Below, piece after piece: positions 12,802 to 57,355 of a stretch of 64,000 nucleotides of DNA. The DNA comes from Mobula hypostoma. Its lineage: Eukaryota. The first letter of the stretch is position 1. Every line of letters begins with the position of its first letter. A model generated the notes under the pieces. It searched no databases, had not been told where the DNA came from, and saw nothing but the letters and a program-made list of their open reading frames with translations. The stretch lies in assembly GCF_963921235.1 (NCBI RefSeq), contig NC_086097.1, forward strand, positions 148,616,001-148,680,000, given 5' to 3'. Both the position numbers and the translations under genes were made by a program.

Positions 12802-13025
12802 AGCAACACACATCAAAGTTGCTGATGAACACAGCAGGTCAGGCAGCATCTGTAGGAAGAGGTACAGATGACGTTTCAGGCCGAAACCCTTCGTTAATCC
12901 TAACCTTACTATTAAACCCGCCGATAAGGGGGTTGCTGTTGTAGTCTGGCGTATTCTACTGCTGCGTTCACCAGCAACTTTGATGTGTGTTGCTTGAATT
13001 TCCAGCATCTGCAGAATTCCTGTTG
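12802..13025 (+). mobile_element. Miniature Penelope-like element: inverted pLTR end, 60-bp ORF remnant, pLTR end
   Basis: Ends match the termini of 23353-25807; middle encodes NLTIKPADKGVAVVVWR (PLE DKG motif); TSD ACTGGGAAAYGAAT at 12788-12801 and 13026-13039. Confidence 0.85.
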
Positions 13026-13059
13026 ACTGGGAAACGAATGAAGCATTTTCTGAAACTGA

Positions 13060-13470
13060 TTGAGGATTCAAGCTGTTTAATGTCACCTCCAGTACAAAAG
13101 TGTAAGGGAGAATGAAATAATTGTTACTCTGGCTCCAGTGTAGCACAAAAAAACACAATAAGATAAAGAACACAATAATATTAAAGTGATGCTAGGCACA
13201 AGAGTGTCTTCACATAAGGTGACTGACAGGAAATTAGGAAGTAGCTGTGGTTGGGGTGTGGGGATGTTGATCAGGTTTCTGCTTAGGGAAATTAACTGCT
13301 TTTGAGTTGGGGGGGGTGCGGTCCTGGCATGGATACTGAGTAGCCTCCTCCCTGATGGGAATGGGACAAACAGTCCAGGAGCAAGTCGGGTGGGATATTT
13401 CATGACATTACTGGCTCTTTTCTGGCACTTTTCTCTATGTATGTCGTTAATGGTAGGTATGCTGGTGCCA
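13060..13470 (-). mobile_element. Rex1/Babar 3' fragment
   Basis: ORF 13083-13403 MKYPTRLAPGLFVPFPSGRRLLSIHART resembles the Rex1 C-terminal ...PSGRR... motif. Confidence 0.7.
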
Positions 13471-13599
13471 GTGATAAGACAACTTAACTATTAATGAGAT
13501 AATAAACAGATACTCTGTAAATATGTTGAAAGTACAGTGTCCACTGTTCTTGTTTCATGGAAGCTTTTATAACTCTGAAAGAGCAACAAGTTCTTTCAC

Positions 13600-13995
13600 T
13601 TTACACCGCACGCTGTCGGAGCAGTGTTGCCAGGATAATCAAGGACACGACCCACCCAGCCAACACACTTTTCGTCCCTCTTCCCTCCGGGAGAAGGCTC
13701 AGGAGCTTGAAGACTCGTACAGCCAGATTTGGGAACAGCTTCTTTCCAACTGTGATAAGACTGCTGAATGGAACCTGACCCGGATCTGGGCCGTACCCTC
13801 CAAATATCCGGACCTGCCTCTCGGTTTTTTTGCACTACCTTACTTTCCCTTTTCTATTTTCTAGTTACGATTTATAATTTAAAATTTTACTACTTACTAT
13901 CGATTTGTACTCCAGGGAGCACGAAGCGCAGGATCAAATATCGCTGTGATGATTGTACGCTCTAGTATCAATTGTTTGGCGACAATAAAATAAAG
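13600..13995 (+). mobile_element. Rex1/Babar 3' fragment (same subfamily as 59772-60320)
   Basis: IIKDTTHPANTLFVPLPSGRRLRSLKTRTARFGNSFFPTVIRLLN plus a 3'UTR nearly identical to 59880-60300. Confidence 0.85.
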
Positions 13996-14139
13996 TTCAT
14001 CATTTCATCTGATGCGTGGAATCAGAATCAGAATCAGGTTGGTTACCACTGTCTTATATGTCACGTTTTTCTTTGTTTTCCAGCAGTGCAAAGACCAACT
14101 TGCTATAAATTACAAAATAAAGAAATCCTGACATCCCAG

Positions 14140-14470
14140 CACTTCAAAGTTCAAAATTCAAAGCAAATGTATTATTAAAGTACAGATATTTCACCATATA
14201 CAACCCTGAGATTCATCTTCTTCAGGGTGTACTCAATAAATCTAGATAATAATAAATATAACAGAATCAATGAAAGACTGCATCAACTTGGATAGTCCAC
14301 CAGTCTGCAAAAGCCAACAAACTGTGCAAATACAAAAAGAAAGAAATAACAAAAATAAATAAGTAAGCAATAAATATTGAGAACATGAGAAGAACATGAG
14401 ATGAAGAGCCCTTGAAAATGAGTCCATTAATTGTGGGAACATTTCAATGATGAGGCAAGTGAAGCTGAGT
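14140..14470 (-). mobile_element. Rex1/Babar 3'UTR fragment
   Basis: (ttcaaag)n tail and UTR homologous to 19800-20106 and 58330-58640. Confidence 0.7.
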
Positions 14471-14479
14471 GAAGGTATC

Positions 14480-17780: not shown

Positions 17781-19039
17781 GTAAAACACTCCAACATACT
17801 TTTCCAGAGCTATTGTAAAATAAAATCTGCCAGTAAATGCCTAACAATATTCCAGCAATTTGGTCCTAGAGGTAGGTGCTGAACAGTTTCTTAAAGATAG
17901 AATTGGAGGATTAGAGGATTAGAAAGAGAATTAATTAAAGGGCACAATCCCTGTAGTATTGGAGCAATGGATGTCCAGGATTAGAATAGTGAATTCTAGA
18001 AGAAACAAAGCTATGGATGAGACTTTTAGCAGATTAGCTAAGGCTAAAACTAAGAATGATGTTGGCCTTGAGTTGTGTTGTAATTTTTGGAGTGGGACTT
18101 GATCCTAAAACCAGAAATGTATGCACTGAACCAAGTTCACTTATTTTATGCATTATTTAGTATCTGGTCAGGTATTCTCAATGAAGACAGGGGCACATTG
18201 GAAAATCAGCTCTAAAGTTTAATGTATTAAATTTACTGGTCAGGAAATCAGACTTGATAGGGTTAAGAATATCCAAACCATTAAGGGATCATTTCGCATC
18301 AAACTGGGGAATCAGAACTTCTCTTGGACTTTCAATGTGCCTTGTTTTGATTGTCAAAAGTTTACATGTGACAAGCTGACTTTAATTTTTGGGTTCTCCT
18401 ATATAGCTCCGACTGAAATTGGAAAGCAGATACATCCCGATGGAGGGTCTCACCTTGAAGCTTTAACCATCCCTTTGTCTCCACAGGTACCCACTGAGTT
18501 CTTCCAGCAGCTTATCTTTTGTTCCAGATTCCAGCACTGTCTCGAGCCTCCAGATCAGTTATGATGTCCATCCCGAAAGAAAATAATCCATCTAGAAGAC
18601 ATCCTAAATATTACTCATCTGTTAATATATATTGTGCAGTATCAGAAATGAGTTAATACATTGAAATTACTTTCCTTTATCTGTCAATTTAATCAAGATG
18701 ATACCTGTTTCAAAATGATTAGTAGCCTGGTCAAAATATGAAACCGGAATTTGAGGCATTCGCGGAAGGGTTCTGGCTGATACTTGAGCCATTTCAATAG
18801 AACAGTACAACTCATATAATGTCATTGTTTGTGGGACAACCTTGGGTTGTAATTTAGCTGTTTTCCTTTCCTACTTACAACTTCAAGGAGTGCTTCATTG
18901 GCTAGTAGGTACCCTAAGACTTGCAGTTATAGTGTTAGCAACATAAATAAATGCAACATAGATTTTATATTCTGTTTTTAAAGTTTCATTGCATAATTTT
19001 AACCCAAGAATCTCTCAATGAAACATTCTGTAACAAAAC

Positions 19040-20200
19040 AGAGACATAAGAGAGGCTGAAGATTCTGGAAATCTGGAGCAACACACGACATGCTGGAGGA
19101 ATTCAGCAGGTCATGCAACATCTGTGGAGAGAAATGTCTAGACAATGTTTCAGGCTGAATCAAAGGTGGTAATGTATCAGCATATGGGAGGAAGATTGAA
19201 AATCTGTCTGAGTGGTGCCACAACAACGACCTCTTACTCAATATCAGCAAGACCAAGGGGATTATTTTTGTCTTCAGGAGGAGAAAACTAGAGGTCCCTG
19301 AGCCAGTCCTCATCAGATGATCAGAGGTGCAGAGGGTCAGCATCTTTCAATTCCTCGGTTTTATCTATTCAGAGGACCTGTTCTGGGCCCAGCATGTAAG
19401 TGCAATTACAAAGAAAGTATGACAGCACCTCTACTTCCTTAGGAGTTTACGAAGATTCAGCATGATGTCTAAAACTTTGATAAACTTTGATATATGTGTG
19501 GTTGAAAGTATATTGACTGACTGCATCACAGCCTGGTATAGAAACACCCATGCTCTTGAATGAAAAATCCTACAAAGGATAGTGGATACAGCCTAGTCCA
19601 TCACAGGTAAATCCTTCCCACCAATGAACACATCTACAGGGAGCACTGTCCCAGGAAAACAACATCAGGGATCCCTACCACCCAGGTCATTCTCTCTTCT
19701 TATTACTGCCATCAGGAAGAAGGTACAGGAGCCTCAGGACTCACACCACCAGGTTTAGAACCAGTCACTAACCCTCAACCATCAGGCTTTTGAACCAAAG
19801 GGGATAACTTCACTAAACTGCACTTGCGCCATCACTGAAATGTTCCCACAACCCATGTAGTCACTTTCAAGGACTCTTCATCTCATGTTTTCAATATTTA
19901 TAGATTATTAATTTATTAAAATTTCTTTTTTATATTTGTATAGTTTATTGTTTTTTGAACACTGGTTGTGCACCCATTTAGCACTGTTTTTCAATGATGC
20001 TATTATGGTTATTAGATTTATTGAGTATGCCCACAAGAAAATGAATCTCAGGGTTGCATCTATTGACATATATGTACTTTGATAATAAATTTACTTTGAA
20101 CTTTGAGACCCTTCATCAGGACTGAGAAGGAACAGGGCTAAAGCTGGAATAAAAAGGCTGGGGGAATGAGAGGAGCAGGAGCAGAGTCTGGCAAGTAATG
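19040..20200 (-). mobile_element. Penelope-like pLTR fragment whose hammerhead motif is split by a Rex1 insertion
   Basis: tgctggaggaattcagcagg...gtttcaggctga | gacccttcatcaggactg; the two halves rejoin into the pLTR/hammerhead motif. Confidence 0.75.
19159..20106 (+). mobile_element. 5'-truncated Rex1/Babar LINE
   Basis: AYGRKIENLSEWCHNNDLLLNISKTK...LLLPSGRRYRSLRTHTTRF; ends ttactttgaactttga. Confidence 0.85.
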
Positions 20201-20235
20201 TGTGAGGCTGGAGACCAGCAGAGAGTCAATCACCC

Positions 20236-20384: not shown

Positions 20385-21229
20385 AAGGAGGTGAATGAGG
20401 ACCGAGGAGAGAGAAAAATTACAGTGCTGCAACTGTGAGGTACAGATAACAGCAATAGCTGTAAATTGGAAATTAAAGAAAATACTGATAATACCCAATA
20501 AATCAGGGAGCATCTGTGTAGAGGGACAAAAACAGAGCTACTATTACAGCTTGGCGTTCTTTCATCAGAACCAGCCATTGAGTTCAAAATATATTCAACA
20601 ATTTCAAGTTATCAGCATTTTCTTTTTATATGTTTCAAGCACACTGGATTCCTTTGGTAACTTAAGGTAACGGTTCTGTTCCCATTTACACTTACTTGGA
20701 AACTGATCTTTGTTTCATGTCTAATCACTACTCTCTTCCACTTTTCATCTTTTGTCATTTAATTTTCCCTGTCATGGACATTACAGTAGACCTTTATTAG
20801 TCTCTCCAATTTTACTCAGCTTCTTGCATTTTAAACCTGGAGCATTTTAAGTTGCTGAAGCTATTTAGTGTGCAAAGTGATATCTGTGGAGAGGGAAACA
20901 GAAATAATGATCATCAACTTGATTCAGATGTGCCTGGACCTACTGAGCATTTTCAGCAACTTCGCTTTTTATCTTACTTTTTAAAAATTTGTTTTTCTTT
21001 GAATTTCCCCAGTCAAAAATGTTAACTTGTTTTCTTCCTCTAAGGATGTGATGAGTATTTCCAACATTTCCTATTCTGATTTTGGTGCACTGAAGTAAAA
21101 CTAATTTTCCATAAATCCTATACACAACATCACTTATTCATAATCATGTTCACAACTCTGTCAGCAATTTCTATGCATTTGCACACATGTACAGATTAAT
21201 TCTGTATTTGATGTGGTACCACAGTATTA

Positions 21230-23250
21230 CTGGAGAAAAAGGTAAACTTCTGGAAGAAACTAATAGGTCAAGAAACATTAGTTGTGGCAGTGGTAGGTTG
21301 ACACTTCAGTTTGAGATTCTGCGTCAGGACTGAGAGAGTGAAGGAAAGATAACCAGTGTACAGAGGTGAAAGGGAGGGATGAGGTAGAAACTGCTGGGTG
21401 ATGGATGAAATCATTAAGGGAAGCATGATGGGCAGGTGGAACTAGGTGGAGTGGAGATAGGAAAGGTGAACCAAAGTGGTGTGATCCCATTGGAACAGGC
21501 AGAAGTGGCAAAGAATAATGTGCTGAAAGCAGGGTGAAAGGTGAAGACTAAGGAAACTTTATCTCTGCACTAATGGGGTAGAGGGGCAAAAGCTGAGAGA
21601 AGATGTGTAGCAAATGAAGGAAAGGTGTGTGAGGGTTCCATCATCTCAGCATGTTTCCCAAAGAACATGGGAACTTCAGAAGTTCTCGAGTGGCAAGCCT
21701 CATCTGGAGAACAGGTGGAAAGGAGACAGAGAAATTGAAGATGGGGAAAAGCTTTCTTGACGAGAAGAGGTGTAGACTTATAGCAAATAGCAGTTATAGT
21801 TTGTCTCCTGAAGTAGAGTCACAGAGATATAAAGTACCACAACACGGAAGCAGGCCCTTCAGTCCATCTAGTGAATGCTGAACTGCCTAGTCCCATCGAC
21901 CCACACCTGGACTATAACCTTCCATACCCCTCCTATCCATGTACCTCTCCAAACTTCTCTTAAATGTTGCAATCGAACCCACATCCACCACTTTCGAGCA
22001 CAACTCATTCCACACTCAATCCATTCTCTTGAATGAAGTTCATCCTCAGGTTCACCTTAAATATTTAACTTTTCATCTTTAACCTATGACCTCTAGTTCT
22101 AGTCTTATCCAACCATAGTGGAAAAAAGCCTTCTTACTTTTACCTTGTGAACACTCCTCATAATTTTGTATACCTCTAAAAAATCTCCCCTCATTTTCGT
22201 CTGCTCCCGGGAACAAAGTCCTAACCGATTCAACCTTTCTCTAAAACTCAATTCCTCAGTTCCTCATGTCCCGGCAACATCCTTGTAAATTTTCTCTGTA
22301 CTCTTTCAATCTTATTGATAACTTTTCTGCAGGCAAGTGATCAAAACTGCACACAATACTCCAAATTTGGCCTCACCACGATTTAGACATAGGAACATAG
22401 AACATAGAAAACCTATAGCTCAATACAGGCCCTTTGGCCCATGATGTCATGCCAAAAATGTACTTATTTTAGAAATTACCTAGGGTTACCCATAGCCCTC
22501 TATTTTTCTAAGCTCCATGTACCTATCCAACAGTCTCTTAAAAGACCCTATCCGCCTCCACAACCGTCGCCGGCAGCCCATTCCAAGTACTCACCACCCT
22601 CTGCGTAGAAACTTGCCCCTGACATCTCCTCTGTACCTACTTCCAAGCACCTCAAAACTGTGCCCTCTCGTGTTAGCCATTTCAGCCCTGAGAAAAAGCC
22701 TCTGACTATCCACATGATCAATGCCTCTCATCAACTTCAGCATAACATCTCTTGATTTATGAAGACCAATGTGCCAAAAGCTGTCTTTATAATTTACCTG
22801 TGAATCAACTTTCAAGGAATTATGGATCTGTATTCCCAGATCCCTTTTTTTCTACAAGGATGGAGACAGAATGATCCAGAAAAGAAAAAGATGTTTCAGA
22901 AAGAGATATATCAGAAATAGCCAAGAAGCATTTGAGGGCAAGGTGGAGATTGATGGCTAAGGTGAAGAATTTGATGTGTTCTACACGAGTGCAGGTATGC
23001 AGGAAACAGCACCAATGCAATCACTAAGGTGGCAGGGAAAGAATTAGGAAGGGGGTTCAAGAATTGGGGACCTGTTGAGAAACAAGACTCTTCTACAAAG
23101 CAAACAGAAAGATATGTGTACCTGAGACCCACATGCTAGTCTCCATGGCTACACCATTGATTTACAAACAGTGAGAGGAATCAGAAGAGTAGCTGCTGAA
23201 AATAAAACCATAGTATGTCAGGTGAGAGTGTTGATAGAGGAGAACTGGTG
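21230..23250 (-). mobile_element. Old Penelope-like element (pLTR plus RT relic) interrupted by nested CR1s
   Basis: Decayed hammerhead-type motif ~21297-21332; RT relic at 22853-23200 (DCIGA..., IKFFTLAINLHLALK) parallels 24200-24480. Confidence 0.65.
21830..22850 (-). mobile_element. CR1 3' fragment containing a younger CR1 3' end (~22385-22732)
   Basis: CR1 ORF2 C-terminus and 3'UTR; the inner copy has an (AGAACAT)n tail and encodes MRGIDHVDSQRLFLRAEMANTRGHS. Confidence 0.8.
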
Positions 23251-23413
23251 GGTTTTGTTACTAGGTTATGTTACTGAACTGATCTTGCAAAGAAAAAAAT
23301 CAAAACTTTGTTTATCAACTGGAAGACTTAAATTTAGTTAACTTAATTAAATCAACATACATCAAAGTTGCTGGTGAACGCAGCAGGCCAAGCAGCATCT
23401 ATAGGAAGAGGCG

Positions 23414-23451
23414 CAGTCGACGTTTCAGGCCGAGACCCTTCGTCAGGACTA
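23414..23451 (-). ncRNA. Minimal type I hammerhead ribozyme motif (inverted arm copy)
   Basis: Exact reverse complement of 25675-25712. Confidence 0.85.
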
Positions 23452-24033
23452 ACTGAAGGAAGAGTGAGTAAGGGATTTGAAAACTGGAGGGGGAGGGGGA
23501 GATGCAAAATGATAGGAGAAGACAGGAGGGGGAGGGATAGAGCCGAGAGCTGGACAGGTGATAGGCAAAAGGGGATACGAGAGGATCATGGGACAGGAGG
23601 TCCGGGAAGAAAGACGGGGGGGGTGACCCAGAGGATGGGCAAGAGGTATATTCAGAGGGACAGAGGGAGAAAAAGGAGAGTGAGAGAAAGAATGTGTGCA
23701 TAAAAATGAGTAACAGATGGGGTACGAGGGGGAGGTGGGGCCTAGCGGAAGTTAGAGAAGTCGATGTTCATGCCATCAGGTTGGAGGCTACCCAGACGGA
23801 ATATAAGGTGTTGTTCCTCCAACCTGAGTGTGGCTTCATCTTTACAGTAGAGGAGGCCGTGGATAGACATGTCAGAATGGGAATGGGATGTGGAATTAAA
23901 ATGTGTGGCCACTGGGAGATCCTGCTTTCTCTGGCGGACAGAGCGTAGATGTTCAGCAAAGCGGTCTCCCAGTATGCGTCGGGTCTCACCAATATATAAA
24001 AGGCCACATCGGGAGCACCGGACGCAGTATATC

Positions 24034-25382
24034 TTCTTATATACTTCCATCCCCCATCAGGAAGGTCTCAAAGCTCTACGCTTCTTTTTGGATTCCAGAC
24101 CTAATCAGTTCCCCTCTACCACCACTCTGCTCCGTCTAGCGGAATTAGTCCTTACTCTTAATAATTTCTCCTTTTGCTCCTCCCATTTCCTCCAAACTAA
24201 AGGTGTAGCTATGGGCACCCGTATGGGTCCTAGCTATGCCTGCCTTTTTGTTGGGTTTGTGGAACAATCTATGTTCCGTGCCTATTCTGGTATCTGTCCC
24301 CCACTTTTCCTTCGCTATATCGACGACTGCATTGGCGCTGCTTCCTGCACGCATGCAGAACTCGTTGACTTTATTAACTTTGCCTCCAACTTTCACCCTG
24401 CCCTCAAGTTTACCTGGTCCATTTCCGACACCTCCCTCCCCTTTCTAGATCTTTCTGTCTCTGTCTCTGGAGACAGCTTATCCACTGATGTCTACTATAA
24501 GCCTACTGACTCTCACAGCTATCTGGACTATTCCTCTTCTCACCCTGTCTCTTGCAAAAATGCCATCCCCTTCTCGCAATTCCTCCGTCTCCGCCACATC
24601 TGCTCTCAGGATGAGGCTTTTCATTCTAGGACGAGGGAGATGTCTTCATTTTTTAAAGAAAGGGGCTTCCCTTCCTCCACTATCAACTCTGCTCTTAAAC
24701 GCATCTCCTCCATTTCACGTACATCTGCTCTCACTCCATCCTCCCACCACCCCACTAGGAATAGGGATCCCCTGGTCCTCACCTACCACCCCACCAGCCT
24801 CCGGGTCCAACATATTATTCTCCGTAACTTCCACCACCTCCAACGGGATCCCACCACTAAGCACATCTTTCCCTCCCCCCCTCTCTCTGCATTCCGCAGG
24901 GATCGCTCCCTACACAACTCCCTTGTCCATTCGTCCCCCCATCCCTCCCCACTGATCTCCCTCCTGGCACTTATCCGTGTAAGCGGAACAAGTGCTATAC
25001 ATGCCCTTACACTTCCTCCCTTACCACCATTCAGGGCCCCAAACAGTCCTTCCAGGTGAGGCATCACTTCACCTGTGAGTCGACTGGGGTGATATACTGT
25101 GTCCGGTGCTCCCGATGTGGCCTTTTATATATTGGTGAGACCCGACGCATACTGGGAGACCGCTTTGCTGAACATCTACGCTCTGTCCGCCAGAGAAAGC
25201 AGGATCTCCCAGTGGCCACACATTTTAATTCCACATCCCATTCCCATTCTGACATGTCTATCCACGGCCTCCTCTACTGTAAAGATGAAGCCACACTCAG
25301 GTTGGAGGAACAACACCTTATATTCCGTCTGGGTAGCCTCCAACCTGATGGCATGAACATCGACTTCTCTAACTTCCGCTAG
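24034..25382 (+). pseudogene. PLE polyprotein fragment: RT, thumb, Cys linker, GIY-YIG endonuclease; 5'-truncated with one frameshift near 24935-24945
   Basis: LYTSIPH, QTKGVAMG, RYIDD, LPFLDL, YYKPT, SSHP; then YPCKRNKCYTC and VIYCVRCSRCGLLYIGETRR...RFAEH...VATHF...EQHLIFRL...GMN to TAG. Confidence 0.92.
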
Positions 25383-25674
25383 GCCCCACCTCCCCCTCGT
25401 ACCCCATCTCTTACTCATTTTTATGCACACATTCTTTCTCTCACTCTCCTTTTTCTCCCTCTGTCCCTCTGAATATACCTCTTGCCCATCCTCTGGGTCA
25501 CACCCCCCCCGTCTTTCTTCCCGGACCTCCTGTCCCATGATCCTCTCGTATCCCCTTTTGCCTATCACCTGTCCAGCTCTCGGCTCTATCCCTCCCCCTC
25601 CTGTCTTCTCCTATCATTTTGCATCTCCCCCTCCCCCTCCAGTTTTCAAATCCCTTACTCACTCTTCCTTCAGT

Positions 25675-25712
25675 TAGTCCTGACGAAGGGTCTCGGCCTG
25701 AAACGTCGACTG
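25675..25712 (+). ncRNA. Minimal type I hammerhead ribozyme motif in the PLE pLTR
   Basis: UAGUC-CUGACGA-AGGgucucggCCU-GAAA-CGUC-GACUG: stem I UAGUC/GACUG, core CUGANGA and GAAA, loopless palindromic stem III ACGU, predicted cleavage after C25707. Confidence 0.85.
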
Positions 25713-26009
25713 CGCCTCTTCCTATAGATGCTGCTTGGCCTGCTGCGTTCACCAGCAACTTTGATGTATGTTGCTTGAATTTCCAGCATCTGCAGAATTC
25801 CTGTTGTTTAACTTAATTAAATGTTAGCATTGTAATGACAAAACTTCAGCTTGTTCCTTAGGAGGTCTGCTATGCTTAGCAGATCTTGTTTATATCTGAA
25901 ACCCAAAATGTACAGTGCAGTTGACATACAAGTGTCCCAAAATGAATATTGAATAATTAATTATATTACAACTATTAAGAATATTAATAATAATATCCAA
26001 TGACCAATC

Positions 26010-26240: not shown

Positions 26241-26689
26241 GCCTGCACAGGCCTTGGTTTTGGACCAAACAGAGGCATGCTCTCACCACATAACGTCCTA
26301 TTTACTAACAGCTGAAGATTTGGCAGAAGAAATGGCTAAGTCATGAAGGTAATGTTAGGTGAGACCTCTGATAGCTGGCACGAGAACAAACTTGAAGGAA
26401 AGATCTTGACCTCATTTTCATTACCTACCTCTTGTGGATGCAGTCTTCCTTAACACGGAGGATGAAAGCTGTAATTCTTAGACACCAATCACTTTAGTGA
26501 AGAAAATTGCGACCAAAGTTCTCTAAAGCAGTGCCCTAGGTGTAGCTTTATCCAACTCAGCTTCATCAATAATCATTCCACTATCATAAATGAGCACACT
26601 TGCTGATGGTTGCAAACTGTTCAATTGCTTCAAGATGCAAGGGAGCCAGATGAGTTTTTATAACAATCCAATATTTTCACAGATACCAA

Positions 26690-26885
26690 TGCACACAAAA
26701 TGCTGAAAGAATTCAGCAAATTATGCAGCATCCATAGGGCAAAACGAACAGTCAATATTTTGTGCCGAGACCCTTCATCAGGACTGAAAATGAAGGCCCC
26801 TTCCATTCATTTTTCTCCTTAGATGCTGCCTGACTTCCAGTATTTCATGTGTGTGATAATCTGCATCTGCAGTCTCTCGTGTCAT
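26690..26885. mobile_element. Older miniature PLE-derived element (two inverted pLTR ends)
   Basis: cacacaaaatgctg...gcagcatc...gagacccttcatcaggactg then gatgctgcctgac...tgtgtgtg...gcatctgcag; possible decayed TSD cacag(a/c)tacca at 26678 and 26893. Confidence 0.65.
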
Positions 26886-27127
26886 TTTATTGCACAGCTA
26901 CCATTCATTTTGTTAACTGAATTTGCATTGTCATCAGCTGGGGTGAAATATAAAATTATGCTGCCAGATAAATAGCCCAAGCCTCTCAAAGTACAATATC
27001 ACAAACACAATGCTACTCTACCCTAGTATAATGCATAGCATACCTCAATCTCATGACAGGTTGGTGACTGATAAATAAATTAATGACTGTCTATATCATC
27101 CAGGTTGCTTATTTAAGATGATAAATC

Positions 27128-39877: not shown

Positions 39878-42800
39878 ACCATAAGAAATAGGGGCGGAAT
39901 TAGGCATATGGCCCTTCAAGTTTGCTCCATCATTTCATCATGGCTGATCCAATTTTCTTCTCAGTCCCAATCTCCTGCCTTCCTCCTACATCCCTTCATG
40001 TCCTGACCAGTCAAGAATTTATCAACCTCTGCCTTAAATCTACATAAAGCCTTGGCCTCCACAGCTGTCTGTGGCAATGAATTCCACAGATTCACCACTC
40101 TCTGGCTAAAGAAATTCCTCCTCATCGCTGTTCTAAAAGGATGCCCCTCTGTTCTGAGGCTTTATCCTCTGGTCTTAAACTCTCCCACCATAGGAAATAT
40201 CCTCCCACATCTACTTTATCAAAGCCTTTCACCATTCAATAGGTTTCAATGAGGTCACCCCTCGTTCTTCTGAATTCCAGTGAATTCTTGCTTGGAGCCA
40301 TCAAACACTCTTCATATGACAAGACATTAAATTCTGTAAACATTTTTGTGAACCTCCTTTGGACCCATTCCAGTTTCAGTACATCCTTTCTAAGATAAGG
40401 GGCCAAAATCTGCTCACAACACTCCAGGCGAGGCTTCACCAGTGCTTTAAAAAGTCTCAACATTACCTCCTTGCTTTTACACTCTAGTCTTCTTGAACTG
40501 AATGCTAACATTGTATTTGCCTTCCTCACCACAGAACTCAAATTAAGTTAGGGAATCCTGCACAAGTACCCATTACACCTCAGATTTTTGTATTTCCTCT
40601 CCATTTAGAAAATAGTCAACCCTTTCTACCAAAGTGCGTGACTATACACCTCCCAACACTGCCACTTCTTTGCCCATTCTCCTAATCTGTCTAAGTCCTT
40701 CTGTATCCTCTCTATTTTCTCTAAACTATCTGCTCCTCCACCTATCTTTGTATTAATCTGCAAAGTTTGCAACAAAGCCATCAATTCCATCATCCAAATC
40801 ATTGTCATATAACTTTAAAAAATAGGTCCTTGTGGAAAACCACTTAGTCACGGGCAGCCAACCAGAAAAGGCCCCTTTTATTCACACTCTTTGCCTCCTG
40901 CCAGTCAGCCACTGCTTTATCTACGTAAAACCATAGGCTTGTAGCTTGTTAAGCAGCCTTGTGTGTGGCACCTTATCAATGGTCTTCTGAAAATACAAAT
41001 ACACAACATCAACCATTTCTTCTTTCTCTATATTGCTTGTTATTTCTTCAAACAATTCCAACCGAATGGTCAGGCAGATTTTCTCTTGAGGAGACCATGC
41101 TGACTATGGCCTGTTTTATTATGTTGCACCAAGTATTCCAAAACCACATCCTTAACAATCAACTCTAACGTCTTCCCACCACTGAGGTCAGACTAACTGG
41201 CTTATAATTTCCTTTCTTCTGCCTCTCTTCCTTCTTGAAAAGTGGAGTGAAATTTGCAAATTTCCAGTCCTCTGGAACTATTACAGAATCTAGTGATTCT
41301 TGAAAGATCATTACTAGTGCCTCCACAATCTCTTCAACCATTTCCTTCAGAACTTTGGGGTGTACATCATCTGGTCTAGGTGTCTTATCAACCTTCAGAC
41401 CTTTCAGTTTTCCAAAAACCTTCTCTCTAGTAATGGTAACTTCACAAACTTCATGCCCTCTGACACTTGGAACTTCCATCATACTGCTAGTATCTTCACA
41501 GTGAAAACTGATGCAAAATACTTATTCAGTTCATTGGCCATTTCCTTGTCACCCCCATTACTACCTCTCCAGCATCATTTTCCAGTGGTCCGATATTCAC
41601 TCACCTCTCTTTTACACTTTATGTATCTGAAGAATCTTTTGGTATCCCCTTTAATATTATTTGCTAGCTTACTTTCATATTCCATCTTTACCTTCTTAAT
41701 TTCTTCTTTAGTTGCCTTCTGTTGATTTTTAAAAGCTTTCCCGTCCTCTAACTTCTCACTAATTTTCCTCTATTTTATGCCCTCTCTTTAGCTTTTAAAA
41801 ACAAGAGAAAATCTGCAGATGCTGGAAATCAAAGGAACACACACAAAATGCTGGAGGAACTCAGCAGGCTGGGTAGCATCTATGGAAAAGTGTCAGGGCC
41901 TAAACCCTTCATTTGGACTGAAATAAAAAAGATGAGGATTCAGAGTAAGAAGATGGGAGGAAGGGAGGAAGAAACACAGGGTGTGAAACTGGGTGGGGAG
42001 AGGGGTGAAGTAAAGACCTGGGAAGTTGATTGGTGAAAGAGATACAGGGATGGAGGAGGGGGAAAATGATAGGAGAGGCCAGAAGGCCATGAAAAAAAGA
42101 AAAGTGGGAGGAGCACCAAAAGGAGGTGATGGGCAGTTAAGGAGAGAGAGGAAATTGGAATGGCAAATGATGAAGGAGAACTATGGGGCATTACCTTTAG
42201 ATTTTATGTTGGCTTTGACTTCTCTTATTAGCCACAGTTGTGTCATCTTGCCTTTAAAATACTTCTTCCTCTTTGGGACGTATATCTCCTATGCCTTCCG
42301 AATTGCTTCCAGAAATTCCAGCCGTTGCTGCTCTGCCATCATCCCTGCCAGTGTTCTTTTCCAATCAACTCTGGCCAACTCCTCTCTCATGCCTCTGTAA
42401 TTCCCTTTACTCCACTGTAATACTGACACATCTGACTATCACGATCACCTACCCCTAAGGATTCTTTTACCTTAAGCTTTCTAATCAATTCCTGTTCATT
42501 GCACAACACCCAGTACAGAATAAGTGGACTAATACAGAATCTAGTGGACTCAGTCATAAGCTGCTCTAAAAAGCCATCTCAGAGGCATTCTAGAAAATCC
42601 CCCTCTTGAAATCCCACACCAACCTGATTTTCCCAATCTACCTGCATATTGAAATCCCCCATGACTGTTGTAACATTGTCCTTTTGACATGCATTTTCTA
42701 TCTCCTGTTGTAATTTGTAGTCCACCTCCTCACTACTGTTTGGTGGTCTGTATATAACTCCCATCAGCGTCTTTTTACCCTTGCAGTTCCATAGCTCTAT

Positions 42801-45290: not shown

Positions 45291-45299
45291 TATTGTTGG

Positions 45300-45430
45300 A
45301 GATAAAAGAGACTCCAGTTGCTGGAAAACTGGAACAATACACAAAGGAGCTGGAGTAACGCAGCGGGTCAGGCAGTATCTACAAAGAGAAAGGGCAGTTA
45401 ATTTTTTCAGTAAAAACCCTTCATCAGGAC
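45300..45430 (-). mobile_element. Decayed PLE pLTR end
   Basis: gctggagtaacgcagcgggtcaggcagtatct...aacccttcatcaggact. Confidence 0.6.
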
Positions 45431-46239
45431 TTACTTTATTAATCTTATTAATCTGATTATTATTAATTGTTAATAGATATTTTTAAGTTTCTCTCCTTTG
45501 AGCATCATCATTAAAACTGCCTCCCCCATGATCCATGCTATCAGAGAAATGGGAAGTAGTTCATGTTTTTCAGGTCTCACCAAGAACATTATTGCTGGTG
45601 GGCAATGTGATGTAAAAGGCACAGGTTAGTAGAGGACATTTTCCTTGCCAATGTTTAGTCTAAGATCTATAATATTCTCTTATACATATGTTTCATTGAA
45701 GGCATTGCGGGTTGCTTGAAGTTCAGCTTTTGAATTTATGCAAATGTAAGCATTACTTACATAATGCATCTCAACTAATGAGATTTGAGTAGCTTTGTTC
45801 TGGCATATAAATTGCTGGAGGTTAACAACTTCACATTAATTCTTAGGATTAGTTTCACTCAGAATGTATGTAAAAGTCAGCTGTGAAGTCTCATTTGCTA
45901 CATTTGGGAAGAGGAGAGCATTCAGAGATGTTACATTCGAGATCAAATTCAAGAGAGGAGACAAGTATAACTGTGGTAAGTACAGAAGGGTACTACAGAA
46001 AAAGTCATCACTAGGTCATTCTACATCATTCTTACCCAAGCTCAATTGCTGCTTCACCTCACTGAGATATTCAGAGGCACAATAAGCATGATCTTCACCA
46101 CATAACAACTCCATGAAATGTGCAGAGAGCAGCACCAACACCTCATGTTGCAATTTTTAATCTTACCAAAACCTTTGTTTCCATTAACCAAGACTGACTC
46201 TTTACAACCAATAGCTCAGAGAAACTTACTTCCATCTTA

Positions 46240-46623: not shown

Positions 46624-47153
46624 TGAGGGGTGATTGATAAATTTGTGGCCTAAGATAGAAGGAGTCAATTTTAGAAAACCTAGCACATTTATTTTTCAAC
46701 ATAGTCCCCTCCTACATTTACACACTTCGTCCAGCGGTCTTGGAGCATACGGATCCCTTCTTTGTAGAAGTCAGCATCTTGGACCTCCAGAAAGTGGTCC
46801 ACAGCAGGGGTGATTGATAAGTTCATGGCCTAAGGTAGAAGGAGATGAGTTATTTATTTCAAGCTTTCTGCATTATCACTCAAAGAGATGAACTGCATGT
46901 GCATGTAACGAGAGCTGTATAACTCATCTCCTTCTACCTTAGGCCATGCCACGAACTTACCAATCACCCCTGCTGTGGACCACTTTCTGAAGGTCCAAGA
47001 CGCCGACTTCTACAAAGAAGGGATCTGTATGCTCCATGACCGCTGGACTAAGTGTGTAAATGTAGGAGGGGACTATGCTGAAAAATAAATGTGCTAGGTT
47101 TTCTAAAGTTGACTCCTTCTACCTTAGGCCATGAACTTATCAATCACCCCTCG
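46624..47153. mobile_element. Mariner-derived palindromic non-autonomous element (MITE)
   Basis: TA|TGAGGGG...CCCCTCG|TA; ~230-bp inverted arms; 46981-47088 encodes HFLKVQDADFYKEGICMLHDRWTKCVNVGGDYAEK*, a mariner transposase C-terminus. Confidence 0.9.
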
Positions 47154-47257
47154 TAGAATTTCAATGGGATCTGGCCTATTCCTGATTATTGTAACTTCTT
47201 AATTACAAATATGGCCTTCTTAACTTCTTGTCAGTCAGGAATGACAAGAAGTTCGCT

Positions 47258-47370
47258 TTGTTCAAAGATCTCGTAAATTGTGACTCTGCTTTTGGCCCAG
47301 TTTGCTTTGAGATAAAATGCAGGGTATTTGTGCCAAAAGCAGAGTCACAATTTACGAGATCCTTGAACAA
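47258..47370. repeat. 39-bp inverted repeat with one mismatch and a 35-nt spacer
   Basis: ttgttcaaagatctcgtaaattgtgactctgcttttggc / gccaaaagcagagtcacaatttacgagatccttgaacaa. Confidence 0.9.
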
Positions 47371-51469: not shown

Positions 51470-53865
51470 AGACCAGAAGACATAAGAGCAGAATTAAGCC
51501 ATTCAGTCTGCTCTGCCATTCCATCATGGATGCCACTCAACTCCATATACCTGCTTTCTTGCCATATCCTTTGATACCGACCAGGAAATGATCAACTTCT
51601 GCCATAAATATATGTACAGACTTGGCCTCCACCACAATCTGTGGCAGAGCACTCCACAGATTCGCTACTCTCTGGCTAAAAATGTCCTCCTTACCTCTGT
51701 TGTAAAGGACTGCCCCTCAATTTTGAGGCTGTGCCTTCTAGTTCTGGATAACCCCACCGTAGGAAATATCCTCTCCACATCCACCCAATCTAGTCATTTC
51801 AACATTCGGTAGATTTCAATGAGATTGGCCCACATTCTTCTAAATTCCAGTGAGTACAGTCCCAAAGCTGCCAAATGCTCCTTGTATGTTAACCTGTTCA
51901 TTCCCAAAAATCATCCCCGTGAACCTCCTCTAGACTCCCTCCATTGACAACACATCCTGTCTCAAATATGTGCCCAAAATGGTTGACAATACTCCAAGTG
52001 CAACCTGATTCATGTCTTATAAAAGCTCAACATTATCTCCTTGCCTTTATATTCTACTCCCATTGAAATAAATGCAAAGATTGCATTTGCCTTCCTTACC
52101 ACAGACTCAACCTGTAAATTAACCTTCTGGGAGTCTTGCACGAGGTCTCCCAAGACCCTTTGCACCTCTAATGTTTGAACCTTCTCCCCATTTAGATAAT
52201 AGTCCACAGTGTTGTTCCTTTTACCAAGATGCATTATCATACATTTCCTAACACTGCATTCCATCTTTCACTTTTTGTCTATTCTTCCAAATTATCGCAT
52301 CGCTTTCTTAGCAATACCTACCCCTACACTAATCTTTGCATCATCCGCAAACTTGTCCACAAAGCCATCATTCCATTATTTACACAGAATGCTGGGGGAA
52401 CACAGCAGGCTAGGCAGCATCTGGGAAGAGAGTACAGTCGAGCAACACACACAAAATGCTGGAGGAAAACAACAGGCCAGGCAACATCTAGGAAAAGAGT
52501 ACAGTCGACCTTAAAGAACCGGCAATTGAAAGTGTGGATCCGGAGGAGGATAAAGAAGCATACCATTCCATTATAGGCGGCGGAGAGAGAATTCCAGATT
52601 TGTGGAAGTGACTGGGAAAGGGACACCATGTACCTCTTCATGGTGGAAAGCATGGCACGTGGAACGTGGTGGGAGAAGAAGGGGGAGAAGCAGTCAATTG
52701 AATGTGAGTTCCTGGGGTCCTCAGAGGGTTCAAATTGAGCAGCTTGAAAACAAATCTGGAAGCAATGTGGCATTAGCTGGCATGAAGACATGTTTCCAGA
52801 AAGGATACATGGTTGTAGGAGTGGGTCTGGGTAAGCACGTGGTCAAAGAGTCAGAGAGCAGCGGGGATCATAGAGAGGGAGCAGTGAGGGGGGTTTCACT
52901 GAACTCCCGTTCAAGGGATGATTTAAACTTCAGGGTAGGCATCCCCGGAAGGGGCTTCACAGTGTCATAATCTGATCACAAACAAGAGAAAATCTGCAGT
53001 TGCTGGAAAGCTTGCAGCGTTGACTGTACTCTTCCTAGATGCTGCCTGGCCTGCTGAGTTTCTCCAGCATTTCATGTGTGTTGCTCAGATTTCCAGCATC
53101 TGCAGATTTTCTCTTGATTGTAGTTCCATTATCTAAATCATTGACAACAATTTGAAAAGCAGCAGTCCCAATACTAACCCCTGAGGAACACCACTAATCA
53201 CTGGCAGCCAACCAGAAAAGGCCCCCTTTATTCCTACTCCCTGCCTCCTGCCTGTCAGCTATTCTGCTATCCATGCCAGTATCTTTCCAGTAACGTCATA
53301 GGATTTTATCTTGTTAAGCAGCCTCATGTGTGGCACCTTATCAAACGCGTTCTGAAAATCCAAGTAAATGACATCCACTGCCTTTTCTTTGTCCACCCTG
53401 CTTGTTACTTCTTCGAAGAATTCTAGCAGATTTGTCAAGTGAGGTTTCCCTTTACATAAACCATGTTCTTTGACTTATTTTATCATTAGTCTCCAAGTAC
53501 CTCGAAACCTCATCCTTAGTAATAGACTCAAACATTTTCCCAATCACTGAGGTTAGGCTAACTGGCCTATAATTTCCTTTCTTTTGCCTTCCTCCCTTCT
53601 TAAAGAGTGGAGTGACATTTGCAATCTTCTAGTCCTCTGGGACCACGCCAGAATCAAGTGATTCTTAAAAGATCATGACCAATGCATCCGTTATCTCTTC
53701 AGCAACCTCTCTCAGGACTCTGGGATGTAGTCCATCTGGCCCAGGTGACTTAACCACCTCAAGACTTCTGAGTGTGCTGAGCACTTTTTCCATTGTAATA
53801 GCAATGGCACTCACTCTTGCTCCCTGACACTCACAGACCTCTGGCACACTGCTAGTGTCTTTCAC
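51470..53865 (-). mobile_element. 5'-truncated CR1 interrupted by a PLE
   Basis: KSPGPDGLHPRVLREVAEEI, KCMIMHLGKRN; gaccagaagacataag tail. Confidence 0.88.
52383..53123 (-). mobile_element. Rearranged PLE insertion: two tandem pLTR ends, a 5'UTR/N-terminal ORF segment, and an inverted pLTR end
   Basis: Two units ending agagtacagtcg(ac); 52511-52975 abuts the pLTR tail; TSD TTCCATTATYTA at 52371-52382 and 53124-53135. Confidence 0.8.
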
Positions 53866-54060
53866 TAAATGAATGACTACTTAACGAACTGAGACTTGGA
53901 GGCCTGGTCGAAGGGGGTGAGGGCACGGGGAGATTACTACCTGATGCAGGAAGTGCAATGTAGCTTTTTTAGACCTACATGGACATAATGAATTAATAAA
54001 CTCCCTGTGTCCCCCAAATTTTCTCTCATTCAAAGATTTAGTAGCTCAATGGTTCAACTT

Positions 54061-55255
54061 AGAACATAGAACATAGAATGGTACAGCACAGTACAGGCCC
54101 TTTCGCCCACAATGTTGTGCCGACCCTCAAACCCTGCCTCCCATATAAGCCCCCACCTTAAATTCCCCCATATACCTGTCTAGTAGTCTCTTAAACTTCA
54201 CCAGTGTATCTGACTCCACCACTGACTCAGGCAGTGCATTCCACGCATCAACCACTCTCTGAGTAAAAAGACCTTCCTCTAATATCCCCCTTGAACTTCC
54301 CACCCCTTACCTTAAAGCCATATCCTCTTGTATTGAGCAGCGGTGCCCTGGGGAAGAGGTGCTGGCTATCCACTCTATCTATTCCTCTTATTATCTTGTA
54401 CACCTCTAACATGTCTCCTCTCATCCTCCTCTCCAAAGAGTAAAGCCCTAGCTCCCTTAATCTCTGATCATAATGCATACTCTCTAAACCAGGCAGCATC
54501 CCGGTAAATCTCCTCTGTACCCTTTCCAATGCTTCCACATCCTTCCTATAGTGAGGTGACCAGAACTGGACACAGTACTCCAAGTGTGGCCTAACCAGAG
54601 TTTTCTAGAGCTGCATCATTACATTGTGACTCTTAAACTCTATCCCTCGACTTATGAAAGCTAACACACCATAAGCTTTCTTAACTACCCTATCCACCTG
54701 TGAGGCAACTTTCAGAGATCTGTGGACATGTACCCCGAGATCCCTCTGCTCCTCCACACTACCAAGTATCCTGCCATTTACTTTGTACTCTGCCTTAGAG
54801 TTTGTCCATCCAAAGTGTACCACCTCACACTTCTCCAGGTTGAACTCCATCTGCCACTTCTCAGCCCACTCCTGCATCCTATCAATGTCTCTCTGCAATC
54901 TTTGACAATCCTCTACACTATCTACAACACCACCAACCTTTGTGTCGTCTGCAAACTTGCCAACCCACCCTTCTACCCCAACATCCAGGTCGTTAATAAA
55001 AATCACGAAAAGTAGAGGTCCCAGAACAGATCCTTGTGGGACACCACTAGTCACAATCCTCCAATCTGAATGTAATCCCTCCACCACCACCCTCTGCCTT
55101 CTGCAGGCAAGCCAATTCTGAATCCACCTGGCCAAACTTCCCTGGATCCCATGCCTTCTAACTTTCTGAATAAGCCTACCGTGTGGAAGCTTGTCAAATG
55201 CCTTACTAAAATCCATATAGATCACATCCACTGCACTACCCTCATCTAAATGCCT
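54061..55255 (-). mobile_element. Young 5'-truncated CR1
   Basis: ORF 54605-55231 with [25 protein letters not shown]; (AGAACAT)n tail. Confidence 0.93.
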
Positions 55256-55430
55256 TGTTGTGAAAAATTATACTTGTTCTTGAAGACTATTATCAAATGT
55301 CTAGGCCTGTATAAGTATAAGCATTGAGTATAAAACGAAAGAGGTTACACTAAATCTTTGCATCCATCTAAGTATAATAACCAATTTGGACACTACTTTT
55401 GCGAAAAGGCATGAAGATCTTGGAGAATAC

Positions 55431-56064
55431 ATCTGAGATGTCCTCCTTCTTCTAAGAACAGGGGTTCCCTCCCTCGACTATTGATGATGCCTCACCCACA
55501 TCTCCTCTCTTTCCTGAACATCTGCGCTCACCCCATCTTCCCACCAGAAGCAGAACTTCCCGGTGCCCAAACATTTTAATTCCCATTCCCATTCCAATAT
55601 GTTGGTCTTGTGCCAAGGTGAGGTCACGCTCTGGGTGGAGGAGCAACAGCTTACATTCTGTCTAAGTAGCCTCCAATCTGGTGGCATGAATATTGATTTC
55701 TACTTCAGGTAAAAAAAAAATTCCCTCTCCCTCCCCCCTTTCACTATACTCAACTTTGGCCTTGTACCTCTTCTCACCTGCCTATCGCTCCCTCCCTGGG
55801 TCTCCTCTCCTTCCCTTTCTCCTATCGTCCACTCTCCTCTCCTAACAGATTTCTTCTTCTCCAGCCGTTTACCTTTCCCACCCACTTGGTTTCACTTATT
55901 ACCTTCCAGTTAGTCATCCCATCCCCCCGACCATTTTATTTTGCTCTTTCCCCTGTCCTTTTCAGTCCTGAAGAAGGGTCTTGAGCCAAAACGTCGACTG
56001 TTTATTCATTTCCATAGATGCTGCATGATCTGTTGAATTCCTCCAGCATGTTGTGCATGTTGCT
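55431..56064 (+). mobile_element. PLE 3' fragment (GIY-YIG end plus pLTR) inserted in an old CR1 relic (~55270-56400)
   Basis: Homologous to 24640-24750 and 25195-25773; TSD TTGGAGAATAC at 55420-55430 and 56065-56075; hammerhead motif 55963-56000 with GAAA mutated to AAAA. Confidence 0.85.
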
Positions 56065-56414
56065 TTGGAGAATACTGTAGATAATTAGAAGAAACTTCCC
56101 AGGGTTGAAGATTACTCTTACATGGCTAGAGCAAAGAAACTGAAACTCTTCACATCAGCGAAGGCTGAGAAAAGATTTGACAGAAGAATTCAAATTCTTG
56201 ACTGATTTAGATAAAATAAAGAAGAATTGTTTTCATTGGCAAGGAGATGTTAACCAGAGGAGATAAATTGATAGGCAAAGGAATCAGAGGCATGTGAGGA
56301 TAAGCTTCCTTTGTAATTTCAAATACATTGATTGTTAGAAGGAGGGGAACAGACTTAATAATGTCTTTAAAAGGGGGAAATAGATCTATGCCTGAATGAG
56401 AATAAATGCAGGGA

Positions 56415-57355
56415 AAACATCTCCGCAGGATCCCACCACCAAGCACATCATTCCCTCACCCCTCCCAACGTTTCACTTTCTGCAGGGATCGCTCTCTACA
56501 CTACTACGTTGTCCATTCATTCCTCCCTACAGATCCCCTTCCTGGAACTTATCCTTGCAAGTGGAATAAGTGCTCCTATGCCTCCTCGTCACTGCCATTC
56601 AGGGCCCCAAACAGTCCTTCCACACTTCACCTCTGATTCTTTTGGGGTCATTTACTGCACCTGGTGTTCCTGGTGTGGCCTCCTGTATATTCTTGAGAAC
56701 CAACATGGATTAGAAGACCTCTTTGCTGAGCATCTAGGCTCCGTTCACCAGAAATGCGGGATCTCATTTTAATTCTACTTCCCATTCCTATTCTGACATG
56801 TCAGTCCTTTGTCTCCTCTACTGCAGTAATGAGGCCATTCTCGGGTTGGCCTTATATTCTGGGTAGCCTCCAACCTGATAGCATGAACATTGATTTCTTG
56901 AACTTCTGATAATTGCACCCCCCTTCACCATTCCCCATTCCCCATTCCTATTTTCTGCTCTCACTTTATCTCCTTACCTGCCCATCACCTCCCTCTGGTG
57001 CTCCTCCCACCCCCCCTACCTTTCTTCCATGGCTTTCTGTCTTCTCCTATCAGATTCTCCCTTCTCCAGCCCGTTATCTTTTCACCAATTGACATCCGAG
57101 CTCTTTCCTTCACCCCTCTCCTCTCTCAGTTTCACCTATCACCTACTACCTTATACTTCTTCCTTCCCCCACCCCCCCCCAACCACCTTCTTATCTTGAT
57201 TTCTCATCTTTTTCCCTCAGTCTTAATGAAGGATTTCGGCCCAAAATGTTGACTGGGCCCTTTTCAATAGTTGCAGCTGGCCTGCTAAGCTCATCCAGCA
57301 TTTTGTGTGTGTTGCTTGGATTTGCAGCATCTTCAGATTTTCCCCTTGCTTGTGT
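56415..57355 (+). mobile_element. Decayed PLE 3' fragment (linker, GIY-YIG, pLTR)
   Basis: GTYPCKWNKC, GVIYCTWCSWCGLLYILE...FAEHL; decayed hammerhead motif ~57218-57255. Confidence 0.85.

What the first reader, a model, noticed from the sequence alone, without database searches (positions are those of the whole stretch)
12802..57355. Dense family of hammerhead-derived pLTR copies behaving like a SINE or retrozyme-like system
Seen: the same motif (cagtc ctgaNga agggtctcggccY gaaa cgtc gactg followed by gatgctgcctg...ccagca) recurs intact or decayed near 12870, 18440, 19145/20110, 21310, 23430, 25690, 26770, 41900, 45420, 52440/52505, 53020, 55980 and 57235. Several copies are short, non-coding and have their own 11-14 bp TSDs. 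Inference: a non-autonomous ribozyme-bearing family mobilised by PLE RT/GIY-YIG, at roughly one copy per 5 kb here. If typical of the genome, that is a very large hammerhead load inside host introns.
Basis: partly seen in the sequence, partly recalled or inferred. Interest (0 to 1): 0.72.

Follow-up and report, generated by a model that had tools for sequence, protein, structure and literature searches.

The report
Truncated Penelope retrotransposon ends with hammerheads
The repeated motif is the known minimal hammerhead-ribozyme motif at the end of a very abundant Penelope-like jumping gene of a cartilaginous fish, and the short copies here look like ordinary truncated or folded-back leftovers of that gene, not a separate family of small mobile ribozymes.

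Summary
The motif is real: all 15 listed positions are recovered, but they collapse into 11 insertions. They are ends of a Neptune-like Penelope-like element (RT, CX4CXXC linker, GIY-YIG). The SINE/retrozyme reading is not supported. Six of 11 insertions carry ORF sequence, including two of the short TSD-flanked ones. Lengths run from 114 to 2455 bp, 3' ends fall into two classes (with or without a ~33-bp tail) and 5' ends differ. Four insertions are fold-backs. Non-coding copies are no closer to each other (65%) than to ORF-bearing ones (64%). No tandem ribozyme array exists. A strict hammerhead core survives in 1 of 11 insertions, the young ORF-bearing one, on opposite strands. One apparent 11-bp TSD is false. 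No host exon was found, so 'in introns' is unverified. This anatomy is described for Penelope-like elements (PMC8557442, PMC3846280, PMC11167929), as are min-hammerheads scattered by the thousand (PMC4209133). The scan noted the same family repeatedly elsewhere in this genome. What remains of interest is the very high copy number and one arm that starts at the predicted cleavage site.

The parts
12802..13025 (.). I1: 224-bp fold-back insertion. Minus-strand pLTR end without tail (12802-12897, core damaged), plus-strand PLE ORF piece (about 12896-12956, NLTIKPADKGVAVVVW), plus-strand tail end (12959-13025). TSD 14 bp at 12788-12801 / 13026-13039.
   Evidence: (15 of 16 aa identical to shark PLE protein P0002, E 1.8e-11)
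18432..18545 (+). I2: old, decayed pLTR end; core lost; no TSD found
19040..20200 (-). I3: pLTR end split inside helix II of the hammerhead by a nested ~940-bp repeat (19160-20102); 5' boundary approximate; no TSD above chance
21228..23161 (-). I4: old 5'-truncated PLE with RT remnants (23161-22847, 21776-21483), a nested CR1-like piece of ~1 kb, and a decayed pLTR; core lost
23353..25807 (.). I5: young 2455-bp insertion. Inverted arm 23353-24033 (EN C-terminus + pLTR, no tail); direct 5'-truncated RT, linker and GIY-YIG (24034-25382, one frameshift near 24934), pLTR and ~33-bp tail. Perfect 15-bp TSD at 23338-23352 / 25808-25822.
   Evidence: PF01541 E 1.1e-4; arms differ by 2 substitutions and one 2-nt indel in 683
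25675..25712 (+). Minimal type-I hammerhead motif, strict core; C3 at 25680, predicted cleavage after 25707; helix III reduced to the palindrome ACGU; U at position 11.1
23414..23451 (-). Identical hammerhead motif in the inverted arm of I5
26689..26892 (.). I6: 204-bp non-coding fold-back; minus arm with hammerhead (G12 changed to A) and no tail, plus arm with tail; marginal 11-bp TSD
41798..42194 (-). I8: 397-bp solo pLTR plus tail inside a CR1; core mutated and partly deleted; 12-bp TSD confirmed by the empty site in the paralogue at 8125-8284
45300..45434 (-). I9: pLTR end with tail; both core boxes present but helix II/III and cleavage triplet context broken; no TSD
52380..53123 (.). I10/11: one ~740-bp insertion inside a CR1. 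Plus-strand tail arm (53010-53118), minus-strand tail piece running into ~460 bp of the N-terminal PLE ORF (to ~52515), then two tandem pLTR ends (52512-52440, 52439-52382). 9-bp TSD at 53132-53124 / 52379-52371. No hammerhead core.
   Evidence: flanks collinear with 6 CR1 paralogues; N-terminal profile E 5e-5; reversed control best 4.3
55431..56064 (+). I12: 634-bp copy with RT and EN remnants joined by an internal deletion, pLTR without tail, G12 changed to A; 11-bp TSD at 55420 / 56065
56418..57352 (+). I13: 935-bp 5'-truncated copy with linker and EN remnants, pLTR and tail; core lost; no TSD

Best explanation
The copies are insertion products, of several ages, of an autonomous endonuclease-bearing Penelope-like element (Neptune-like) in a cartilaginous-fish genome. 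Shown here: fixed 3' ends in two classes ~33 bp apart, variable 5' ends, fold-back arms with both 3' ends facing outward, ORF pieces inside short copies, 9-15-bp AT-rich TSDs, and decayed hammerhead cores. Inferred from published work on an anole PLE: the element's protein nicks both strands of AT-rich DNA and starts reverse transcription at one of two internal sites just past the hammerhead (tail / no tail). Synthesis usually stops early or jumps along the full-length RNA, so most products keep only the terminal 60-400 bases. The hammerhead lies 65-100 bases from the start sites and is copied as a passenger. It needs a partner copy or the element's protein to cleave, is not needed after insertion, and decays, often by CpG transitions.
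For: ORF sequence in 6 of 11 insertions. Lengths 114-2455 bp with different 5' ends. Two 3'-end classes in the alignment; a loose-end pile at the tail end 25809 in 623 contigs with a mixed AT-rich flank. 4 of 11 insertions are fold-backs and 3 of the 4 have the tail on one end only, as described in PMC8557442 and PMC3846280. Mean identity non-coding vs non-coding 0.65 (14 pairs), vs ORF-bearing 0.64 (58 pairs); the nearest neighbour of 5 of 6 non-coding arms is an ORF-bearing arm. Strict core in 1 of 11 insertions; G12 reads A in I6, I12 and I13. In contigs, the ORF end continues into divergent pLTRs (729 + 667 loose ends at 25376/25377), and no begin/end pile and no joint with more than 2 contigs was listed.
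Against: Only 11 insertions were examined and no genome was held. Five insertions have no detectable ORF sequence, and I8 is a clean solo pLTR that starts about at the ORF stop. Four arms (I1 left, I2, I6 left, I9) begin within ~15 nt of the 5' edge of the hammerhead, and 609 contigs have loose ends at 25676; their consensus looks like older pyrimidine-rich pLTR, but agreement is low (0.39), so real 5' ends may be mixed in. The contig tables were cut (2325 joints and 7325 loose ends not shown; DNA runs undercounted), so a minor non-autonomous subfamily could be hidden. Old copies are too decayed (50-70% identity) for subfamily structure to show well.
Confidence: 0.85

Rival explanations
1. A dedicated non-autonomous, SINE-like pLTR family is transcribed on its own and mobilised in trans by the PLE protein.
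For: 5 of 11 insertions lack ORF sequence; I8 is a TSD-flanked solo pLTR. Non-autonomous PLE derivatives and trans-mobilisation by pLTRs are described (PMC8557442, PMC3846280 passages).
Against: The two non-coding TSD-flanked copies differ in length and structure (204-bp fold-back, 397-bp solo) and are 70% alike. No common 5' end, no clade, no tRNA/5S/7SL head among Rfam hits. Short copies I1 and I10/11 hold N-terminal ORF sequence that only a full-length RNA supplies.
Confidence: 0.08
2. Part of the short arms were copied from RNA already cut by the hammerhead, or from RNA on which RT stalls at the hammerhead fold, so 5' ends pile up at the ribozyme. This is an addition to the best explanation, not a replacement.
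For: In I10/11 one arm starts at 52439, exactly at the predicted cleavage site (2-nt microhomology allows -2 to 0). The 67-bp tandem unit runs from that site to the tail-less 3' end. The other two arms start at about -3 to -6 and -4 to -8.
Against: All three arms belong to one insertion. Two of them reach upstream of the cut, which a cleaved RNA could not template. No begin/end pile was listed. For the anole element, cleavage is not needed for insertion and no RNA-seq reads began at the site (PMC11167929).
Confidence: 0.15
3. The copies are non-LTR retrozymes: tandem hammerhead monomers that self-cleave into circular RNAs.
For: Retrozymes are reported to derive from pLTRs and were found in one chondrichthyan genome (bioRxiv 10.64898/2026.07.22.740005). 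Single contigs show short go-back joints inside the pLTR (table 5c).
Against: No tandem array with hammerheads in the window; the only pLTR tandem is 67 bp x 1.9 and has no core. The motif is the minimal type, not the canonical retrozyme type (PMC7229834 passages). The only two strict cores are on opposite strands.
Confidence: 0.03

Closest known systems
Minimal hammerheads (min-HHR) in the pLTRs of metazoan Penelope-like elements (Cervera and De la Pena 2014, PMC4209133; parts 1-2 of 4 read)
   Same: Type-I topology, no real helix III, palindromic 15.2/16.2, extra base after position 9, location in the pLTR, mostly single dispersed copies tied to truncated PLEs.
   Different: That paper's main text reports about 4,000 (coelacanth) and 9,000 (Xenopus) motifs and names no shark or ray in the parts read; its supplements were not seen. 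Density here points to far more relics. The young copy has U, not C, at position 11.1.
Complex insertions of EN+ Penelope-like elements, Neptune/Nematis type (Craig et al. 2021, PMC8557442; Arkhipova et al. 2013, PMC3846280; passages read)
   Same: Strong 5' truncation, inverted 5'-truncated arm, optional 30-40-bp tail on one end, 8-10-bp TSDs there (9-15 here), solo pLTRs, internal deletions, CX2-5CXXC linker, two cysteines inside GIY-YIG.
   Different: No full-length or partial-tandem copy is in this window; clade not placed on a tree; very small fold-backs (204-224 bp) are common here.
PAc, Poseidon element of Anolis carolinensis (Frangieh et al. 2024, PMC11167929; parts 1-2 of 4 read)
   Same: Two RT start sites bounding the tail, nicking and extension of both strands, AT-rich targets, hammerhead close to the pLTR/ORF junction.
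   Different: PAc is Penelope/Poseidon clade, which lacks the linker motif found here; none of these activities was assayed for this element.
Animal non-LTR retrozymes (Cervera and De la Pena 2020, PMC7229834, passages and section 15; Li et al. 2026 bioRxiv 10.64898/2026.07.22.740005, parts 1-3 of 5)
   Same: Type-I hammerhead, pLTR ancestry proposed, high copy number (126,247 motifs in axolotl).
   Different: Retrozymes are tandem 150-450-bp non-coding monomers that each keep a ribozyme; here copies are dispersed, often carry ORF sequence and mostly lack an intact core.

Membership tests
EN+ Penelope-like element | [quoted passage not shown] | tested here: met
   PF01541 at E 1.1e-4; GVIYCVRCSRCGLLYIGET in the translation; RT part 68-70% identical to shark proteins carrying RVT_1
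EN+ Penelope-like element | pLTR with hammerhead motif and optional 30-40-bp tail | tested here: met
   Tail of ~33 bp present on 25774-25807, absent from the inverted arm; two 3'-end classes across copies
EN+ Penelope-like element | 5' truncation and inverted arms, with variable TSDs | tested here: met
   4 of 11 fold-backs; TSDs in 5 of 11 plus one marginal
EN+ Penelope-like element | Full-length ORF in partial tandem (active master copy) | not testable with these tools
   None in the window; no genome held
Neptune (or Nematis) clade | CX2-5CXXC linker between RT and EN | tested here: met
   CKRNKCYTC in 24861-25379; motif definition from PMC8557442
Neptune (or Nematis) clade | Placement by RT phylogeny with named references | not tested
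   No labelled reference PLE proteins were fetched
min-HHR of metazoan PLEs | Core boxes CUGANGA and GAAA, NUH triplet, helices I and II, palindromic minimal helix III | tested here: met
   Met in I5 only (2 of 15 core windows); hammerhead-constrained fold -7.0 kcal/mol vs MFE -11.0; Rfam has no hit for it
min-HHR of metazoan PLEs | Conserved G10.1-C11.1 pair | tested here: not met
   I5 has U at 11.1 (G-U or shifted A-U pair); older copies I6, I12, I13 have C there but lost G12
min-HHR of metazoan PLEs | Self-cleavage as a dimer or with protein help | not testable with these tools
   Needs an in vitro assay
SINE-like non-autonomous family | Shared 5' end and unit length | tested here: not met
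   114-2455 bp, different starts; no begin/end pile listed (tables cut)
SINE-like non-autonomous family | Own sequence subfamily apart from the autonomous element | tested here: not met
   Identity 0.65 within vs 0.64 to ORF-bearing copies; small sample, old copies
SINE-like non-autonomous family | No coding sequence | tested here: not met
   ORF remnants in 6 of 11 insertions
Non-LTR retrozyme | Tandem monomers each with a complete hammerhead | tested here: not met
   Tandem Repeats Finder: only 67 bp x 1.9 without core
Non-LTR retrozyme | Monomer-length linear and circular RNAs | not testable with these tools
   Only assembled contigs of runs guessed to be RNA were available

The most novel reading that the evidence does not exclude
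The hammerhead acts during this element's life cycle in vivo and leaves a genomic mark: some arms start at its cleavage site (as the arm at 52439 does) because cut RNA, or RNA folded at the ribozyme, ends the reverse-transcription run. With perhaps hundreds of thousands of copies, this genome would let the 5' junctions be counted and the open question of what PLE min-hammerheads do be tested directly.
Probability: 0.15. Interest if true: 0.55.

Novelty: new member of a known kind. Interest (0 to 1): 0.2.

Why it matters
As it stands this is an ordinary but very successful Penelope-like family, and its hammerheads are mostly dead passengers. It has value as a resource. Extrapolating one insertion per 5.8 kb to a 2-4 Gb genome gives roughly 0.3-0.7 million relics (one window only; the size range is that given for batoids in bioRxiv 10.64898/2026.10.27.761883, and the host is not identified beyond cartilaginous fish). 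That many copies would allow statistical tests of the two-start-site, both-strand insertion model and of whether ribozyme cleavage shapes insertions. Two recent shark/ray genome preprints searched by keyword do not mention Penelope in their main text, so the family may be under-described there.

Tried and rejected
Whole genome: none held, so no genome-wide count, core fraction or intron strand test. Rfam: no hammerhead hit at E up to 1. Host gene: 276 of 333 stop-free frames of 45 aa or more in non-self-repeated sequence were scanned against Pfam; hits were retroelement domains and one sub-threshold RDM match. A splice-site heuristic with recalled frequencies gave no convincing exon. Short exons could be missed. 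RNA: no RNA holder listed; two runs guessed to be RNA had contigs over the element, which says nothing on strand, ends or cleavage. Summed contig depth (1-9 million inside the element against 8-17 in the flank) is not a copy number and cannot rank parts of the element, so it is not used as a test; only the number of contigs laid (343,277 and 203,786) is taken as a sign of high copy number. Extra copies from public collections: 0 matches in three collections; 119 loci from a shorter pattern matched only the motif itself and are mostly GC-rich, so treated as chance. The 11-bp repeat 52574/52379 was rejected as a TSD because its upstream copy lies inside PLE ORF sequence and that junction matches no CR1 paralogue. 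Monomer folding z-scores are unremarkable (-1.24 for the intact motif). Literature searches for Penelope or hammerheads in sharks and rays listed no paper devoted to this family; this does not show absence from Repbase or supplements.
Full report
Observation. The repeat is real. Reading the flanks shows that the sites belong to 11 insertions. 19145 and 20110 are two halves of one copy split by a nested ~940-bp repeat. 23430 and 25690 are the two arms of one insertion. 52440, 52505 and 53020 lie in one ~740-bp insertion whose flanks join collinearly with six CR1 paralogues in the window. Density is one insertion per 5.8 kb, or one per 4.9 kb with two older remnants.

What the parent element is. 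The insertion at 23353-25807 holds a 5'-truncated reverse transcriptase, a CX4CXXC linker and a GIY-YIG endonuclease with two internal cysteines. Its closest named relatives are shark proteins (Chiloscyllium 70%, Stegostoma 68%), so the host is taken to be a cartilaginous fish. The linker motif marks Neptune and Nematis elements and is absent from Penelope/Poseidon (PMC8557442 passages); I did not place it on a tree. The insertion has an inverted 683-bp arm that differs from the direct copy by two substitutions and one 2-nt indel, a ~33-bp tail on one end only, and a perfect 15-bp AT-rich TSD. One contig from a second organism begins to match exactly at 25808, and its first 501 letters do not match the element. 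That fits an empty site and a recent insertion, but it is a single contig.

The hammerhead. At 25675-25712 and in the inverted arm the motif has both core boxes, a GUC triplet (cut predicted after 25707), helices I and II, and only the palindrome ACGU in place of helix III. This is the minimal hammerhead described in PLE pseudo-LTRs, which showed no cleavage as a monomer and weak cleavage as a dimer in the one tested case (PMC4209133). It has U rather than the conserved C at 11.1. A strict core is present in 2 of 15 core windows scored, both in this one insertion. The two are on opposite strands, so no transcript carries both in sense, and a read-through transcript could pair them into a long hairpin (inference). 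In three other copies G12 reads A, the change expected from CpG decay; others are truncated inside the core, split, partly deleted, or start after it.

Are the short copies a separate family? The evidence says no. (a) Six of 11 insertions carry ORF sequence. The 224-bp copy at 12802-13025 holds 16 codons of the RT N-terminal region, 15 of them identical to a shark PLE protein. The insertion at 52380-53123 holds ~460 bp of the N-terminal ORF (profile E 5e-5, control best 4.3). Both pieces lie far from the 3' end of the ORF and need a full-length template with jumps. (b) Lengths are 114, 135, 204, 224, 397, 634, ~740, 935 and 2455 bp, plus two copies enlarged by nested repeats. The 3' ends fall into two classes ~33 bp apart while 5' ends differ. 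(c) Four insertions are fold-backs with both element ends facing outward, three of them with the tail on one side only. This is the published PLE pattern (PMC8557442, PMC3846280) and fits two internal RT start sites with nicking and extension of both strands (PMC11167929). (d) Non-coding arms are 65% alike among themselves (14 pairs) and 64% alike to ORF-bearing arms (58 pairs); 5 of 6 have an ORF-bearing nearest neighbour. (e) Only two copies are both non-coding and TSD-flanked, and they differ in build: a 204-bp fold-back with a marginal TSD and a 397-bp solo pLTR.

TSDs. With both ends fixed independently, repeats score 15, 11, 11, 9, 9 and 8 in six insertions and 4-5 in three; random flank pairs reach 9 or more in 2 of 1500 and 8 or more in 19 of 1500. 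The two remaining insertions (I3, I4) showed none above chance. Two TSDs are backed by empty sites in CR1 paralogues. The 11-bp repeat at 52574/52379 is a coincidence inside ORF sequence.

Beyond the window. No genome was held. Laying public contigs on 24034-26020 gave 343,277 and 203,786 contigs from two DNA runs, so the family is very high-copy in two organisms; the tool states that depth is not a copy number. Loose ends pile at the tail end (623 contigs, mixed AT-rich flank) and where ORF and pLTR of other subfamilies diverge from this copy. No begin/end pile and no joint backed by more than two contigs was listed, but the tables were cut and the DNA runs undercounted, so a minor non-autonomous subfamily is not excluded. 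No RNA run was on record, so cleavage products and circles are untested. No tandem hammerhead array exists in the window, which fails the retrozyme definition. No host exon was found, so the intron claim and any strand bias against a host transcript are untested; orientations are 3 plus, 4 minus and 4 two-armed.

Mechanism. Shown: the anatomy above. Inferred from PAc: staggered nicks in AT-rich DNA, priming at one of two sites just past the hammerhead, early termination and template jumps, often with a second arm from the other nick. The hammerhead is over-represented because it lies 65-100 bases from the start sites, not because it forms its own element. Confidence 0.85.

What is left open. 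One arm starts at 52439, exactly at the predicted cut (2-nt ambiguity), and forms a 67-bp tandem unit from the cut to the tail-less end. Two sister arms start 3-8 bases upstream of the cut, which favours RT stalling at the fold or chance over a cleaved template. An earlier scan note (e1-7790562, not checked here) reports a separate 63-bp insertion starting at the same site. A genome-wide junction count would settle it.

Prior notes and verdict. The scan has reached the same reading in other windows of this genome and in two other genomes; I had stated my reading before looking, and these notes are not independent support. New member of a known kind; interest 0.2. Supplements of PMC4209133 were not opened and those of the bioRxiv retrozyme paper are closed; either may already list elasmobranch motifs.

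Noticed in passing
window 12802-13025: The two arms of this insertion differ in likeness to the young copy at 25673-25807 (right arm 99%, left arm 86%), although they cover partly different positions. They may come from two different template RNAs.
   Followed up: partly
   Followed up: partly
window 61416-63008 (+): 530-aa open frame with RVT_1 and ALKBH8_N matches, a well-preserved piece of another non-LTR retroelement; relatives of its 3' end recur in the window, including the insert that splits the copy at 19160-20102 (family label Rex1/L2-like is recalled, not tested).
   Followed up: no
window 2789-5553 (-): LINE with a 294-aa first ORF and an endonuclease-RT frame of 470 aa; CR1-like by recall. 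At least 44% of the window is self-repeated.
   Followed up: no
window 28677-28846: 18-bp tandem array, 9.4 copies, 85% matches, next to a LINE fragment.
   Followed up: no
window 46622-47155 and 47268-47359: 208-nt inverted repeat (93%) with a 118-nt spacer and a 92-nt near-perfect hairpin (sub-threshold Rfam mir-4796 match); possibly miniature DNA transposons.
   Followed up: no
window 25311-25809 (run X20): Single contigs of a run guessed to be RNA join the tail end or the pLTR end back to the end of the ORF (25809 to 25311, 25750 to 25320), as expected for partial tandems; a circle cannot be told from this.
   Followed up: no
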